Shown here: piece by piece, positions 25,404-50,434 of the stretch | Layout: the number at the start of each line of letters is the position of its first letter | Numbering within the stretch: position 1 is the stretch's first letter | Origin: Octopus sinensis | Lineage: Eukaryota | Length of the DNA stretch: 64,000 nucleotides | Assembly (NCBI RefSeq): GCF_006345805.1 | Contig: NC_043015.1 | Coordinates: forward strand, 46,376,001 to 46,440,000 | Direction of reading: 5' to 3' | Program-made: the position numbers and the translations under genes | The notes under the pieces: model-generated | Seen by the model: the letters and a program-made list of their open reading frames with translations, nothing else | What the model was told of the DNA's origin: nothing | The model's database searches: none

Positions 25404-26747
25404 CAATCTTTATACAACTTAGAAAAAGAGTGCTCTTTGCTTCAAAATGAAAGTTATGCCTGGAGATTCAATAATGAGTTAAGAATATATTAAAACTTCC
25501 ATTTGCGAAACTACCAAGTGCATGATTTTGTCTAAGAGTTGACTGGCTTCATATTCCATGAATATCAGTTCAGAATTGCTACGCCAATTTTCATTATCTC
25601 ACGACATTGATGGTTACATTACAGGGATGTAGGGGTATGGTTTACAGATGTAACCCCACTTTTTACAAATATATATTATGGCTTACAAGAAAGAAAGAAA
25701 GAAAGAAAGAAAAGAAACGTTGTAATTACTGCTTGATAGAAAATAAATTCGTTCGCCTGTTCGCCAAATATAAAGAAATGTTTATATGGAGAATTAGTGT
25801 TTCTTTAGAAACTTTAGCACTGAGCCAATAATCACGTTACCACGTGACCGACTAGCCTATCAGGTGACCGATTAGACTATCAGGTGTGGTTACACTGGTC
25901 ACAATGCGCTTTGCATTGTTTTACCCTTTGAATGACGCCAGCCCGCTGCCTAGGCGAACAAGCCATATTCCTCCCTGATGGAAACCGGGACTGGAACAAT
26001 GTGAAATGAAGTGTTTTGCTCAAGAACACAACACAACAATTAGTCCGGGAATATAACCCACAGTCGCTAGATTGTGAGTGCAATAGCCTAGCCACTAGGC
26101 CATGCTCCTTCAATAATAGTCTGTACAAATTAGAATTTTAAAAGCTGTCGATTACATTTTATCTTGTAATTGGTTTGCGAGATACTTGCCGTGAAATCAA
26201 GTGTTGAATCAAATTTTGTTGTATGGCGGCAGGGTCATTATGACATTTACAACACGGCATTCTACTAGTTAATTGGTTAAACGTTAAGGAATGTGCTACT
26301 AATAATAACGATAAAAGAAGTGAAACATTGCCAGTGCGTGCGTTTATTATTGACATAATGACCCTCCGGAAATACAACAAAATAACATTCTTATTGCATG
26401 TCTCTAGGTGCTAGCCCTAGCTGGTGGGGGTGCTTGCCTCCCCTTCGCAAATATAAGGACACAGTAAATGTGTCAAAGCCGACAGGAAGCGTCGATGCTT
26501 CCTAGGGCTAAATAGCGGTGGTGTAATTCCCTTTACGGGACTCTCACGTTATGTTGACAGTATACAACTACTCTATCGCTGCACCACCGCTCATGTCTCT
26601 CTGAGACATTTAGAAATTCAATATTTCTAACATTCTTATTACTCGCGATAAATTAGTACACCATCTTTCCGCGCATGCAATTCGAACTCACGAGACTAAT
26701 ACACCGGACCACTGAGCTTGTAGAGGGATAGGTTATGAAGTTAGTTA

Positions 26748-42282: not shown

Positions 42283-42587
42283 GTCAGTATGTATATGATT
42301 AGTGAAGTGTAGAAGCAAACCATTCCTTTCCGCTTTCTCTTCTTCATTTCTTTTCTCCATTTTTTCCTTTCTTCTCTATTTTTCTTTTCTTCTCTCTTTT
42401 TTTCTTTTTTTACTTCATCTTCCCTCTTTGTTGTGAGATGAGTGAGATGCTGTGCGTTGAGTGAACTTTATCTGAGAACGGTTTCAGTTATCATTGCAAC
42501 GGTGTCATCACGCCTGCAGCTGTTACTAATGCCTCTGAAGTAGACATAGACGTAACACAGGTATGTATCCTGCAGGATAACCAAATC

Positions 42588-43060
42588 ATGATCATCATCG
42601 TTGTTCGACCGTGGTCGAGACAATGGAATTTACCATGCTACGCCAGACTTCACGGTCCATCATAGCATTACGGAGGTCCTGTTGCTGGATGCCTGTATCC
42701 CTGGAGATTGCATCAGGGTAGGAGAGTGTGCGCCCTCTGGTATTGCGAGTAGATGGCTTCCAGAGGAGAAGAGTAGAAATTACCTCTTTTTCAGCTCTAC
42801 AACAATGTCCGGCAAACTGGACTCTCCTACCTTTCACAAGAGATGACACAGGTGGTAGTTTCCCATATATTTGCATTTTGGCTGGATGACGCTTCAACGA
42901 GAGATTTTGAGCTCTCATAAGGAGGCGAGTGTAGGTTCCATCCAACTGCCTCTCAAGCTTCTTTGATAACGTCCAGGTTTCTGAGCCATATAGTAGAATT
43001 GGTTCGACTGTGGCTTTGAAGATTTCAAGTTTGAAGTCTCTATCACCAAATACTAAGATC
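42588..43060 (-). mobile_element. RTE-clade LINE 3' fragment (intronic, antisense)
   Basis: Stop-free DRDFKLEIFKATVEPILLYGSETWTLSKKLERQLDGTYTRLLMRA...RRVQFAGHCCR...MMDREVWR...*, followed by a (GAT)n-like tail. Confidence 0.9.
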
Positions 43061-44769
43061 TGTGTTTGCATAAAAGTTGTGAGACAAGATGTAGAGGCTG
43101 GACAGTCCGTCGGTTACGACGAGGACGAGTGTTCCAGTCAATTTGATCGTGAAGTTGATGTTGAAGTGAGTGGGTACTCCACAAACACCCGTACCCTTAA
43201 CTGTAGTTCTCAGGGAGATTCAGTTTGATGCACAGAATGTGACAAGGTTGGCCCATTGAAGTACAGGTACAACACTTTTTTTGCCAGATGAGTGGACTGG
43301 AGTAACATAAAATAAAGTGTCTTGCTAACGCGTCGCTGAGAACCGAACTCACAACCTTTCGATCGTAAGCCAAATACACTAACCACTAAGCAACGTGCCT
43401 TCGCTGACAAGATATGTTAAATAATTAAAACTTCACCAGTGGAGAAGAGGAATAATCATTCGATTAACTGGGATGACTGTGTTTCTTCTAGTTTATAGGA
43501 AGCAGGTTGAAAAGGATCGCAATGAACAGGAAACATAGAGAGAGGCATGGGTTGTGAAGAGAGCCGAGAGAGAGAGGGAGAGAGAGGGGGGCAGACAGAC
43601 AGACAGACAAACAGAGAATTTAGTGTGGAGGTGGCATGAGGTATGGGCTACTTGGGGAGAATGGTAGTTGGTATGATAGGCGGCGAGCTGGCAGAAACGT
43701 TAGCACGCCGGGCGAAATGCGTAGCCGTATTTCGTCTGCCGCTACGTTCTGAGTTCAAATTCCGCCGAGGTCGACTTTGCCTTTCATCCTTTCGGGGTCG
43801 ATTAAATAAGTACCAGATACGCACTGGGGTCGATATAATCGACTTAATCCGTTTGTCTGTCCTTGTTTGTCCTCTCTGTGTTTAGCCCCTTTTGGGTAAT
43901 AAAGAAATGGGTATGATAGGTGTGACAGGTGGTAGTGTAGTGTGAGTTGCCCAATTATTTGCAAGACAGGAGTTTCAAATGATGTGTGTGTGTGTGTCTG
44001 TCTGTCTGCCTGCCTGTCTGTCTGTCTGTGCGCGCGTGAGTATGTGTAACCAACATGGGTGTACTAAAGACCCTGTACGATAAGTTCTTAATTTTTTTTT
44101 TTTTAAATCTCCTTCGTGAACAGAAAAGATAAACAAAAGCCAAATGATGACGGTATGATGTTGTTTGACGGAACATTTCGGTTATGTAGTGAGAGAGAGA
44201 TGATTTTTTTTTCTCTCTCACGCAAGTTTTTTTAACGAACTTCTTCCTATATACCTGATCTCAGACTTACAGAAAATCCATCGCCGGATTTTCAACCCTT
44301 TTGGTTGAAAAATTGGAAGCATTGAGATCCAACTTTTCTTTTTCGTCTTTCTACGGGAGAATTTGAACGAAGTAAAAAAAAATCCTCATGGATTTCGTAA
44401 TGTAATCACTGTCAAATCACAGCAGAGACACTATCCTAGCCTCCACTGTGCTACCTTACTTGAGTGGTTGGCACAAACACTTCAACAAGGTTGCTGGTGA
44501 AACAAGAACTACGAACACATCAGCAAATAGTCCAGTTTATTGATTTGGACATTGATGTGCTGGTACAAGGGTTCGAAGATCCGTTTCAAATTGGACGCCA
44601 TTAGATGATTAAAGTTGTACTTCGTTTTTGTATCTGGTTTGCAAGATTCTTTATGTGAATTCGTGTGTTGAAACATATTTTGTTGTGTCTAGCAAGAGTC
44701 ATTACACCATAATAAATTAAATTTATTTATAAATAAGTGGAATTGAATCCAGTGTGTGTGTTAATTATG

Positions 44770-45394
44770 TGGAAGCACTCCGTCGGTTACGACGACGAGG
44801 GTTCCGGTTGATCCGAATCAACGGAACAGCCTGCTCGTGAAATTAACGTGTAAATGGCTGAGCACTCCACAGACACGTGAACCCTTAACGTAGTTCCCGG
44901 GGATATTCAGCGTGACACAGAGAGTGACAAGGCCGGCCCCTTGAAATACAGGTACAACAGAAACAGGAAGTAAGAGTGAGAGAAAGTTGTGGTGAAAGAG
45001 TACAGCAGGGATCACCACCATCCCCTGCCGGAGCCTCGTGGAGCTTTTAGGTGTTTTCGCTCAATAAACACTCACAACGCCCGGTCTGGGAATCGAAACC
45101 GCGATCCTACGACCGCGAGTCCGCTGCCCTAACCACTGGGCCATTGCGCCTCCACTGTGTTAATTTCAAGGCCGGCCCCTTGAAATACAGGTACGACAGA
45201 AACAGGAAGTAAGAGTGAGAGAAAGTTGTGGTGAAAGAGTACAGCAGGGATCACCACCATCCCCTGCCGGAGCCTCGTGGAGCTTTTAGGTGTTTTCGCT
45301 CAATAAACACTCACAACGCCCGGTCTGGGAATCGAAACCGCGATCCTACGACCGCGAGTCCGCTGCCCTAACCACTGGGCCATTGCGCCTCCAC
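44770..45394 (-). mobile_element. SINE family A, tail type 2, plus a partial tandem duplicate
   Basis: Full copy at 44770-45155, duplicated head and body at 45167-45394. The flank tgtgttaatt is repeated. Confidence 0.85.
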
Positions 45395-45544
45395 TGTGTT
45401 AATTATATCGGCATGATGACTCTCCCTAGATACAACAAAATGATAAAGTATTATTGCTGTCGAACAGCTACATCAGTAAATGTATTTACTGTGAAAATCT
45501 TTATATAGATAGCCTGCACAGAGAGTCGTTCGTCGAGGGGCGGT

Positions 45545-45600
45545 GCCTGCCATACGTTGACGAGAGGCAAACACCTTGAAACCTGGGTCCGTATGTGGCA
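45545..45600 (+). ncRNA. Type I hammerhead ribozyme motif (Sm-alpha-like, C3U core variant)
   Basis: Stem I catacg(45551-56)/cgtatg(45590-95); core ttgacga(45557-63); stem II gagg-caaaca-cctt; GAAA(45578-81); stem III cc-tg-gg; GUC triplet at 45587-89. Stem I continues through tgcc/ggca. Confidence 0.75.
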
Positions 45601-45865
45601 TCCGCTTCTTCGGGGAATGATCTCCCTTTGCAGGCTAGAGGACGCCGTGATGGCGTCAGCCCTTCTGGTGACGTTGATGATCGCCTGGGGCTAAATGCAT
45701 CAGTAACACCCCCACCGCCCTGCCCTGTCCCTAGCCATATTCGGATGGCTAACGTCCCTTATGTGATAAAGTTGTGTCTTCCAGAAAAAAAAAGGAACAT
45801 TTGATGTTATTGCTTTTTGTAACTGTTGCTCGGTTTCTCAAGACTTTTGATTGGTTTATTTGCAG

Positions 45866-46136
45866 GCAATTGACATGGACCCGCGCATTACAAAGCATAG
45901 CTGGTATGCAAGTACTGACAATATTTGCTGGGTTTCTATACCGATCTGCTTCTTTATATCATCCTCGTCGGAAGATGCTTTTACACATCAAAAACCAAAT
46001 GAAGACCAGACGCGATCGAGAGGCACAAAAGCCTCCTTATTTTGACTTTCAAGCATTACGAATGCGTGCTCTACTAATGATGTTAATCATCGTGGCTCTC
46101 GTTGGTCTTGGTATCCACGTTCCATTTATATTACTG
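45866..46136 (+). CDS. SLC16/MCT-like gene exon (TM6, short central loop, TM7)
   Basis: tttatttgcag|G completes an AG/G Arg codon with the previous exon (phase 2 match). Donor CTG|gtaagt is phase 0. Peptide [44 protein letters not shown]...[35 protein letters not shown]. Confidence 0.92.
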
Positions 46137-49449: not shown

Positions 49450-50434
49450 ATATTGCTAGCCGACATTTTAAATTTAGCTGCGTGTCTGCAGGAATTCAAG
49501 AGTTCGCGTCTTTGATTTAAAGTACTATTGTCCTGGAATAAGATATGATATTTTTCCAGTAGGCTAACTCACGTTTGATGGGTCTTTTATGCGCACCGTG
49601 CCTGTAAGGTGAAGCGCTATCTAAAATTCTCCATGTCACGTTGAAAGGTTGGGCTTCCTTCTCTTTTAATTCGCAGATATATTTTGCCAGGCTGGTCTTC
49701 GTCCTATTTTTGGGGTATCGAAAGGAATTTTTACTAGAATAAAATCGGGTTTTGAAAGAATTTTCAGAAGGCTCTGTATAGGTTCTATATTCGTGTGCGC
49801 CTTCTATCTGCACCTTGGCTCTATACACGATTCCTTTCTCCAGACATTTTCCTTCCAACGGACAGGAGGTCCCATCTTGGCAGTTGCAATTTTTTAAAAA
49901 GAATCGGCACTATGATTATTTGCAATTATCTTATTGTTGTGTTGGTTAATGAAAGAGGCGAAGTTTTTGCAGCAAGAATAGCTGATCTTAAGCGTTCTTC
50001 TATTAAATATTCTATAAAACTTATGGTCAGGTTGAAAATGTCTAGAGACTAATTTTAAGAATCCCTTACCTATATTTGTTTCACAGCCATATTGAAAGCT
50101 GGGTTAAACCACAAAACCTTCCTAGTCCTAATTCTACGCGTAACACTACTGCTAACATTAAGTTGGTTATACTGGATCTTCTCAGAGAATCCATTATTCC
50201 TTAATGCGTATTATAATAAGGAGCGGCATTTTGGAATGCTGCCTCATCCGAAGAAATTGACGATATTCGTCTACCTACATTACTGACTAAGTTCCTAAGA
50301 ATAACTGGCGAATAATTGGATTCTTTGCTAATATAAGATAATTTATCATTAGGCTTACGGTAAGGTTTGTATTTATCCGACACTAAATCTAAATTTACAT
50401 CTATGAATTCATTTATTTTGCTTTTTTTGTTCAT
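49450..50434 (-). mobile_element. Penelope-like element (Naiad-type): RT thumb and GIY-YIG endonuclease fragment
   Basis: FIDVNLDLVSDKYKPYRKPNDKLSYISKESN...RRISSISSDEAAFQNAAPYY, then CNCQDGTSCPLEGKCLEKGIVYRAKV...FKTRFY...TSLAKYICELK (CxCx5C motif and a GIY-YIG-like domain). Frameshifted. Confidence 0.85.

What the first reader, a model, noticed from the sequence alone, without database searches (positions are those of the whole stretch)
45510..45770. Retrozyme-like structured element with an Sm-alpha-type hammerhead ribozyme, sense in an intron ~100 nt before an MCT exon
Seen: a ~260-bp GC-rich island in AT-rich intron DNA that folds almost entirely. A ~125-nt rod (agcctgca/tgcaggct, gagagtcgttc/gaatgatctc, gaggggcgg/ccgcttcttc, tgcc/ggca, catacg/cgtatg) is capped by a hammerhead core: UUGACGA - stem II GAGG-CAAACA-CCUU - GAAA - stem III CC-UG-GG - UC. 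Three more hairpins follow (gacgcc/ggcgtc, agccc/gggct, tagccat/atggcta). Known: type I hammerheads with a CAAAUA-like loop II, a stem I internal loop and a tiny palindromic stem III (Schistosoma Sm-alpha type) define metazoan non-LTR retrozymes, which form small circular RNAs. Inference: three C-to-T changes (45557, plus CpG sites 45577 and 45584) separate this copy from a canonical CUGACGA...CCUC GAAA CCCGGG UC ribozyme. That suggests an octopus retrozyme family, with this copy attenuated inside a host pre-mRNA.
Basis: partly seen in the sequence, partly recalled or inferred. Interest (0 to 1): 0.82.

Follow-up and report, generated by a model that had tools for sequence, protein, structure and literature searches.

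The report
Octopus retrozyme with non-standard hammerhead core
This is a young copy of a ~358-base, non-coding, ribozyme-bearing jumping repeat of octopus whose odd catalytic core is shared by its whole branch, and one sister copy is fused to a Penelope-type retrotransposon exactly at both predicted ribozyme cut sites, which likely marks both cutting in the animal and the helper that moves it.

Summary
The element is real. It spans 45450-45763 between 9-bp target duplications. It is a 5'-clipped monomer of a ~358-nt tandem repeat with a type I hammerhead (45551-45595; Rfam Hammerhead_1 21.8 bits, under the cut-off of 34), i.e. an octopus non-LTR retrozyme. The superfamily has thousands of copies and the window's branch hundreds. 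Insertions carry Penelope-like (PLE) signatures: two fixed 3' ends 44 nt apart, inverted arms, (TA)n targets. Stems covary, and the core is conserved even in copies chosen without the ribozyme.

U3 is fixed in this branch (63 of 63 closest cores), mostly as U3-A8. The window's subfamily is U3·G8; the older families are canonical C3-G8.

Unexpected: one sister locus joins the retrozyme, exactly at its predicted cut site, to the predicted 3' cut product of a young, intact Neptune-type PLE. This likely records in-vivo cleavage and points to the helper.

Circular RNA, expression and activity of the U3·G8 core are untested. The scan noted similar PLE/retrozyme elements in other genomes; none was returned with the word octopus.

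The parts
45450..45763 (+). Retrozyme insertion: 5'-truncated monomer (about positions 37-358 of the 358-nt unit, with a 5-nt deletion behind 45467), ending at the family's main fixed 3' end
45441..45449 (+). Left 9-bp target-site duplication
45764..45772 (+). Right 9-bp target-site duplication
45511..45636 (+). Rod (extended stem I) carrying the hammerhead
   Evidence: z -5.5, 0 of 200 shuffles; covariation of the proximal helices
45551..45595 (+). Type I hammerhead: U3 45557, G8 45562, G10.1·U11.1 45564/45577, loop 2 45568-73, GAAA 45578-81, predicted cut after C17 45589
   Evidence: RF00163 21.8 bits, below gathering
45582..45587 (+). Self-complementary helix III/loop 3 (with two U·G pairs), predicted dimer interface
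   Evidence: self-complementary in 106 of 126 monomers
45641..45657 (+). Hairpin with compensatory changes (3 of 6 pairs)
45658..45692 (+). Second hairpin (predicted; covariation not counted)
45732..45751 (+). Conserved hairpin just 5' of the main 3' end (likely near the reverse-transcription start; inferred)
42283..45865 (+). Host intron of the MCT12-like gene that holds the insertion (sense)
45866..46136 (+). Next host exon (MCT12-like)
   Evidence: a contig of run X4 matches 45864-46136 and runs on, on both sides, in other sequence

Best explanation
The stretch is a young, 5'-truncated copy of a multi-copy octopus non-LTR retrozyme (a ~358-nt non-coding tandem unit with a type I hammerhead) that is likely copied into the genome by the reverse transcriptase/endonuclease of a Neptune-type Penelope-like element, probably from circular or multimeric RNA that the hammerheads would cut only as dimers. 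SHOWN: unit length, copy number, two fixed 3' ends 44 nt apart, inverted arms, (TA)n targets, arms longer than one unit, core conservation, stem covariation, self-complementary loop 3, and a fusion with an intact-ORF PLE family at both predicted cut sites. INFERRED: tandem loci are transcribed; two hammerheads pair through loop 3 and cleave after C17; the ends are ligated to circles by a host RtcB-type ligase; the PLE protein nicks AT-rich DNA and starts cDNA inside the RNA at either of two sites, runs through the cut site and around the unit, and often builds a second, inverted arm. The window's subfamily (U3·G8, G10.1·U11.1) likely cleaves weakly. The lone intronic monomer is likely near-inert for the host pre-mRNA because it has no partner hammerhead in cis.
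For: Family: 94 matches from 40 scored of 1,482 candidates at 92-100% identity; tail pattern 713 matches, core pattern 305, older-family motif 4,569, all with 0 control matches. Anatomy in 102 loci/173 arms: 81 arms end at the main end, 67 at the tail end, 25 elsewhere; (TA)n follows 117 of 148 fixed ends; 32 of 48 two-arm inverted insertions have one main and one tail end; 101 of 148 arms cross the cut site; 69 of 173 exceed one unit, longest 1,375 nt. These are the PLE hallmarks in PMC8557442 (passages) and PMC11167929. Tandem units within an insertion differ at 0.6% of sites for subfamily-diagnostic changes, against 6.4% between insertions. Structure: 94.9% of cells paired, 13 of 31 pairs with two-sided changes, covariation 0 of 500 shuffles, slid controls 24-39%. 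Ten core positions show 1.1 tree steps against 2.84 background in 75 monomers not picked by the ribozyme pattern, P 0.0012. Loop 3 is self-complementary in 106 of 126 monomers, with five different perfect palindromes. Canonical relatives score 30.9-32.2 bits on RF00163. Chimera L044: 58 of 59 nt retrozyme up to C17, then 98 of 100 nt of the PLE from the first base after its own predicted cut. That PLE family is young (99-100% identity), has a CX4CxxC linker, RT and GIY-YIG, 784-aa ORFs in 5 of 5 fetched copies, and (TA)n targets.
Against: No circular RNA, cleavage or strand-specific expression could be shown. The cut-site chimera is a single locus (1 match; 1 of 3, the other two are 1-2 nt indels). 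It used the PLE's own 3' ends, so it shows contact of the two RNAs, not trans-mobilisation. The second junction (L109) could be a nested insertion. No homology between retrozyme and this PLE's 3' region, and at least five other PLE families occur in the genome, several of them ending in (TA)n. 5' truncation points do not pile up at the cut site (1 of 148 exactly, 7 within 7 nt). In a type III hammerhead all single and double mutants of the 3/8 region except the G:C swap had low activity (PMC9901934 passage). In a lizard PLE, ribozyme mutants did not impair insertion in vitro (PMC11167929). The window's Rfam score is below gathering.
Confidence: 0.8

Rival explanations
1. Same element, but in the U3 branch the hammerhead is dead or dispensable: copies are made from uncut multimeric transcripts, and the core looks conserved only by recent descent.
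For: U3·G8 and C3·A8 subfamilies amplified (38 and 6 of the first 100 of 305 cores listed). U10.1·U11.1 in 52-type majority copies weakens stem II (pair probability 0-0.01 in three such monomers). Core mutants are low-activity in PMC9901934. Cleavage is not needed for PLE insertion in vitro. No pile-up of 5' ends at the cut site.
Against: L044 breaks exactly at C17 of a U3-A8/U·U copy of this branch. The branch uses mostly pair-keeping states (92 of those 100 are U-A or U·G) and keeps a self-complementary loop 3 through CCGG, CCTAGG and CCTGGG. U3-A8 and U10.1·U11.1 are reported as tolerated (PMC3088659), and a U·U axolotl retrozyme cleaves better as a dimer (PMC7229834).
Confidence: 0.35
2. 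One reading: a canonical family of which this copy was individually attenuated by three C-to-T changes inside the host intron.
For: Older relatives are canonical (48 of 126 monomers C3-G8; 69 matches to a canonical pattern), so the lineage did start from C3-G8.
Against: All three T's are shared with sister copies; the copy is 99.4% identical to its nearest sisters; U3 marks a 77-row clade.
Confidence: 0.03
3. The copies are truncated pLTR ends of an autonomous PLE that I did not find, not a self-standing retrozyme.
For: PLE-type ends; 5'-truncated PLE stumps are common; a 2026 preprint derives vertebrate retrozymes from pLTRs (10.64898/2026.07.22.740005).
Against: In the loci inspected, what lies 5' of a monomer is another monomer, an inverted arm or flank. 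Up to about four units stand in tandem (L073). None of six PLE reference copies shares the monomer. Only 221 loci with hits were examined, out of thousands.
Confidence: 0.07

Closest known systems
Metazoan non-LTR retrozymes (Cervera & de la Peña 2020, PMC7229834): mussel 350-390 bp units, axolotl HHR_Amex2 353-nt unit
   Same: Tandem non-coding unit of 150-450 bp with one type I hammerhead, short helix III, GC 43-50%, large TSD where present, stable predicted circle (z -2.6 to -4.3 in 8 monomers); U·U at the base of stem II as in HHR_Amex2.
   Different: The currently youngest branch has U3 (U3-A8, U3·G8) and a C3·A8 offshoot; copies are dispersed 1-4-mers with PLE tail and inverted arms rather than long arrays; circRNA not tested here; no cephalopod example found in my searches.
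Penelope-like elements, Neptune/Nematis type, and their pLTR hammerheads (PMC8557442, PMC11167929, PMC4209133)
   Same: Partial tandems, inverted 5'-truncated arm, tail on one arm only, (TA)n targets, palindromic loop 3; a U3-A8 core is known from Schistosoma Cercyon PLE minimal hammerheads.
   Different: No ORF; hammerhead is of the canonical Sm-alpha size (6-bp stem I, internal loop, 4-bp stem II, CAAAYA loop), not minimal; no sequence homology to the pLTRs tested.
Vertebrate retrozymes as non-autonomous PLE derivatives (Li, Clavereau & Pollet 2026, 10.64898/2026.07.22.740005)
   Same: Same proposed dependence on PLEs.
   Different: Their evidence is co-occurrence and pLTR homology in Xenopus. 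Here homology is absent and the link is insertion anatomy plus a cut-site chimera. Their canonical/minimal descriptors would likely miss U3 cores (inference).
Rfam RF00163 Hammerhead_1 (Schistosoma Sm-alpha type)
   Same: Full-length match, all stems paired, loop 2 CAAA-Y-A.
   Different: C3U and a G·U closing pair; 21.8 bits against a cut-off of 34 (canonical relatives 30.9-32.2).

Membership tests
Non-LTR retrozyme | Tandem repeat unit of 150-450 bp | tested here: met
   356-360 nt units, 1 to about 4 in tandem
Non-LTR retrozyme | One type I hammerhead per unit | tested here: met
   the core is non-canonical at position 3 in this branch
Non-LTR retrozyme | Non-coding; no LTR/PBS/PPT | tested here: inconclusive
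   Longest frames over the window copy are 74-85 codons stop to stop; no ORF between units in the loci viewed; PBS/PPT not searched explicitly
Non-LTR retrozyme | Mobile, TSD larger than 4 bp when present | tested here: met
   9-bp TSD in the window and 11-bp in L072; most copies sit in (TA)n where a TSD cannot be read
Non-LTR retrozyme | Expressed as small circular RNA | not testable with these tools
   Only assembled contigs were available; contigs cannot tell a circle from a tandem
Type I hammerhead (RF00163) | Core CUGANGA...GAAA...UH | tested here: not met
   U at position 3 (45557); the other ten core positions are intact
Type I hammerhead (RF00163) | Rfam gathering score 34 | tested here: not met
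   21.8 bits; canonical relatives also fall short, at 30.9-32.2
Type I hammerhead (RF00163) | Three helices with covariation; palindromic loop 3 for dimer cleavage | tested here: met
   helix III forms only between molecules
Type I hammerhead (RF00163) | Self-cleavage after H17 | not testable with these tools
   Indirect only: chimera L044 breaks at C17 of a sister subfamily
PLE-mobilised element | Two internal 3' ends (tail), inverted 5' arm, microsatellite targets | tested here: met
Autonomous PLE | RT plus GIY-YIG ORF between pLTRs | tested here: not met
   none in the retrozyme loci examined; present in the separate partner family
Neptune-type PLE (partner) | C-terminal GIY-YIG preceded by CX2-5CxxC linker; RT clade | tested here: inconclusive
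   Linker and domain order met; no RT tree against named clades, so Neptune versus Nematis is not settled

The most novel reading that the evidence does not exclude
The octopus genome holds a fossil record of retrozyme biology: the L044 fusion is a reverse-transcribed product of two different hammerheads cutting in the germ line and being joined, which names the Neptune-type helper; and one lineage has walked the catalytic 3-8 tertiary pair through C-G, U·G, U-A and C·A while staying mobile, so these 'low-activity' cores work in vivo as dimers or with protein help.
Probability: 0.45. Interest if true: 0.7.

Novelty: new variant of a known kind. Interest (0 to 1): 0.52.

Why it matters
Two questions are open in the papers read: which retrotransposon moves animal retrozymes, and whether PLE-type hammerheads cut in vivo. 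This family gives PLE-type insertion scars on a non-coding retrozyme, a named candidate helper with intact 784-aa ORFs, and a junction at both predicted cut sites. The in-vitro PLE assay of PMC11167929 could be applied directly. It also gives a natural series of all four C/U by G/A states of the 3-8 pair in one RNA scaffold. Searches that demand CUGANGA miss the young branch. For the host MCT gene the copy is probably a neutral passenger.

Tried and rejected
Rfam scan of 2.3 kb around the element: no hammerhead; it appears only in a 151-nt scan. In 10 loci scanned together, only L240 (2 hits) gave Hammerhead_1. Suspected autonomous copy at L031: not one; the arm is interrupted by unrelated DNA. 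Partner search by homology: 20+20 loci from a GIY-YIG-like fragment and 30+20 from PF01541 gave several PLE families, none sharing the monomer or tail; retrozyme hits there (L148, L161, L207, L218) are separate insertions. More cut-site chimeras: none beyond L044; the reciprocal junction was not searched genome-wide. Two separate origins of U3·G8 inside the young group: suggested by the tree but a single origin is not rejected (AU p 0.125). Expression: no RNA holder listed. Contigs of three guessed-RNA runs and one run of unknown kind cover parts of the family; they cannot show strand, level or circles, and no C at 45557 was among the rows shown, with 23 rows not shown. Pfam on single MCT exons: only a weak MFS_1 hit. 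Measured rates for C3U or U3·G8 hammerheads: not found; four papers wanted for this were not held. Supplement of PMC7229834 could not be read, one of the PMC4209133 files was not searched, and the preprint's supplements are closed; they could list cephalopod examples.

Full report
Observation. The rod 45511-45636 folds far better than shuffles (z -5.5, 0 of 200); the whole 281 nt only modestly (z -2.3). Rfam Hammerhead_1 matches 45551-45595 over its full length at 21.8 bits, E 0.0027, below the cut-off of 34. The insertion is 45450-45763, flanked by a 9-bp duplication. It is sense in intron 42283-45865 of a gene whose closest named protein is an Octopus monocarboxylate transporter 12, 102 nt before exon 45866-46136. 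A contig of run X4 matches just this exon and continues in other sequence on both sides; a contig of run X16 spans the element's 3' junction with one difference.

Family. A DNA search of the own genome gave 94 matches from 40 scored of 1,482 candidates. The unit is 356-360 nt. Patterns gave 713 matches for the tail, 305 for the young core and 4,569 for a motif of older families, with 0 in each reversed control. In 102 loci with 173 arms (overlapping duplicates left out), 81 arms end at one fixed point, 67 at a second point 44 nt further on, and 25 elsewhere. (TA)n follows 117 of the 148 fixed ends. Of 48 two-arm inverted insertions, 32 pair a main end with a tail end. 101 of 148 arms cross the predicted cut site, and 69 of 173 exceed one unit (longest 1,375 nt). 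Some arms were split or cut by my merging and fetch limits, so these counts are approximate. PMC8557442 (passages) describes partial tandems, an inverted 5' copy, a 30-40 bp tail at one end and microsatellite bias as PLE features; PMC11167929 (parts 1-2 of 4) shows that the tail is the distance between two internal RT starts. Tandem units in one insertion share subfamily-diagnostic sites (0.6% against 6.4% between insertions). This fits a circular or homogeneous multimeric template and does not separate the two.

Ribozyme. On 26 chosen copies across subfamilies, 94.9% of cells pair and 13 of 31 pairs change on both sides (0 of 500 shuffles for covariation; slid controls 24-39% paired). Related sequences inflate this test, so the tree-based count matters more: in 75 of 126 monomers not picked by a ribozyme pattern, the ten core positions other than 3, 7 and 8 show 1.1 steps against 2.84 background (P 0.0012). 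Loop 3 is self-complementary in 106 of 126 monomers (65 strictly Watson-Crick, five different palindromes). Helix III has pair probability 0 in monomers, the hammerhead fold costs about 5 kcal/mol in the window copy, and two loops pair at -9.8 kcal/mol. Dimer cleavage is therefore predicted, as for the motifs in PMC4209133 (parts 1-2 of 4) and PMC7229834 (parts 2-4 of 6).

The odd core is a branch trait. All 63 matches of the closest pattern have U3; 47 have A8 and 16 have G8. Among the first 100 of 305 listed cores I counted by hand 54 U3-A8, 38 U3·G8, 6 C3·A8, 1 C3-G8 and 1 A3·A8. A tree of 126 monomers with the core masked, rooted on the most distant family, puts canonical C3-G8 families basal and the U3 group as one clade (support 99). 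Inside it a U·G copy (L110) branches first, U-A follows, C·A is derived from U-A (bootstrap 100), and U·G reappears, including the window's subfamily; a single U·G origin is not rejected (AU p 0.125). The one C3-G8 copy in the group is a single arm of L131. The window copy differs from its nearest sisters by 2 of 314 nt. So it did not decay on its own. Whether U3·G8 cuts is unknown. U3-A8 and U10.1·U11.1 are reported as tolerated (PMC3088659). In a type III hammerhead only the G:C swap rescued this region (PMC9901934 passage). I found no rate for U3·G8.

The chimera. Locus L044 (G000:C15, junction at 10706300) lies in (TA)n. It reads 58 of 59 nt like the retrozyme up to C17, then 98 of 100 nt like the 3' end and tail of another element, starting at the first base after that element's own predicted hammerhead cut. 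The overlap is one base, and the inverted arm repeats the junction. The other element is a young PLE family: 1,032 candidates, the 40 scored at 99-100%; CX4CxxC linker, RT (RVT_1 E 1.8e-7), GIY-YIG (E 0.002, below cut-off); 784-aa open frames at 7 of 150 places listed and in 5 of 5 fetched. Its hammerhead is also U3-A8 with a palindromic loop 3 in 33 of 34 copies shown alike. A rough estimate of my own for hitting both sites by chance is about 1 in 100,000 per fusion, noticed after the fact. The simplest reading is that both RNAs had been cut and were then ligated (RtcB ligates retrozyme ends in vitro, PMC7229834) or bridged by an RT jump. Limits: it is one locus; it may be an assembly artefact; the retrozyme part is the U3-A8/U·U sister subfamily, not the window's; and it used the PLE's own ends. 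Among 221 loci screened against six PLE reference copies, direct junctions were L044, L109 (same PLE, could be nested) and L148 (another family, next to a tail end). The retrozyme shares no significant homology with that PLE's 3' region.

Mechanism (about 0.8 for identity and PLE mobilisation; about 0.55 for this particular helper; about 0.4 that U3·G8 dimers cut at a useful rate). Tandem loci are likely transcribed, cut as double hammerheads and circularised. A Neptune-type protein likely primes cDNA on nicked AT-rich DNA from one of two internal sites and reads around the unit. The window copy is such a product that stopped about 36 nt short of one unit. Alone in an intron it lacks a partner hammerhead and is probably harmless.

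Against this reading: no expression or circle data; no pile-up of 5' ends at the cut site (1 of 148 exact); ribozyme mutants did not block insertion of a lizard PLE in vitro; mismatched C3·A8 cores also amplified.

Novelty. Retrozymes of this size are known from mussel, coral and axolotl; U3-A8 is known from Schistosoma PLEs; a PLE link is proposed in PMC7229834, PMC7761336 (passages) and the 2026 preprint (parts 1-3 of 5). I found no cephalopod retrozyme in searches (4 listed; 30 of 49 listed; 25 of 2,558 listed; 20 of 87 listed), nor a cut-site fusion or amplifying U3·G8/C3·A8 lineages; unread supplements could change this. Verdict: a new variant of a known kind, interest 0.52.

Noticed in passing
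L044 = G000:C15:10706200-10706430: Retrozyme-PLE fusion joined at both predicted hammerhead cut sites; the inverted arm repeats the junction.
   Followed up: yes
L337-L341 (e.g. G000:C8:31702000-31711900): Young Neptune-type PLE family with intact 784-aa RT-EN ORF, an upstream ORF of about 430 codons, a U3-A8 hammerhead in the 3' region and a ~38-nt tail.
   Followed up: partly
L161-L180, L211-L230: At least five further PLE families with C-terminal GIY-YIG, some with intact 720-780 codon ORFs; clades not tested.
   Followed up: partly
window 26360-26531 (+): A second, degenerate member of the retrozyme superfamily in the window (32.5 bits, E 1.2e-9 with the family model); no hammerhead core seen by eye.
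   Followed up: partly
window 49517-49909 (-): Degenerate PLE endonuclease fragment in a later intron of the MCT gene.
   Followed up: partly
window about 44926-45403: Tandem duplication (about 240 bp) of a very abundant SINE-like repeat just upstream of the element.
   Followed up: no
window 45620-45633: Pyrimidine run ending in CAG inside the element, sense to the host intron: a possible cryptic splice acceptor about 230 nt before the true one; no evidence of use.
   Followed up: no
L358:1519-1524, L359:1520-1524: Two copies with 1-2 nt indels right at the predicted cut site; could be ligation scars or sequencing errors (L358 is noisy).
   Followed up: partly
L031 = G000:C3:30475500-30481500: Retrozyme arm interrupted by about 2.8 kb that includes what looks like a decayed PLE fragment (recognised from memory, not tested).
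   Followed up: partly
L233, L249, L207, L270: Independent U3-A8 and C3·A8 cores in the older families; U4C in 6 of 126 monomers.
   Followed up: partly
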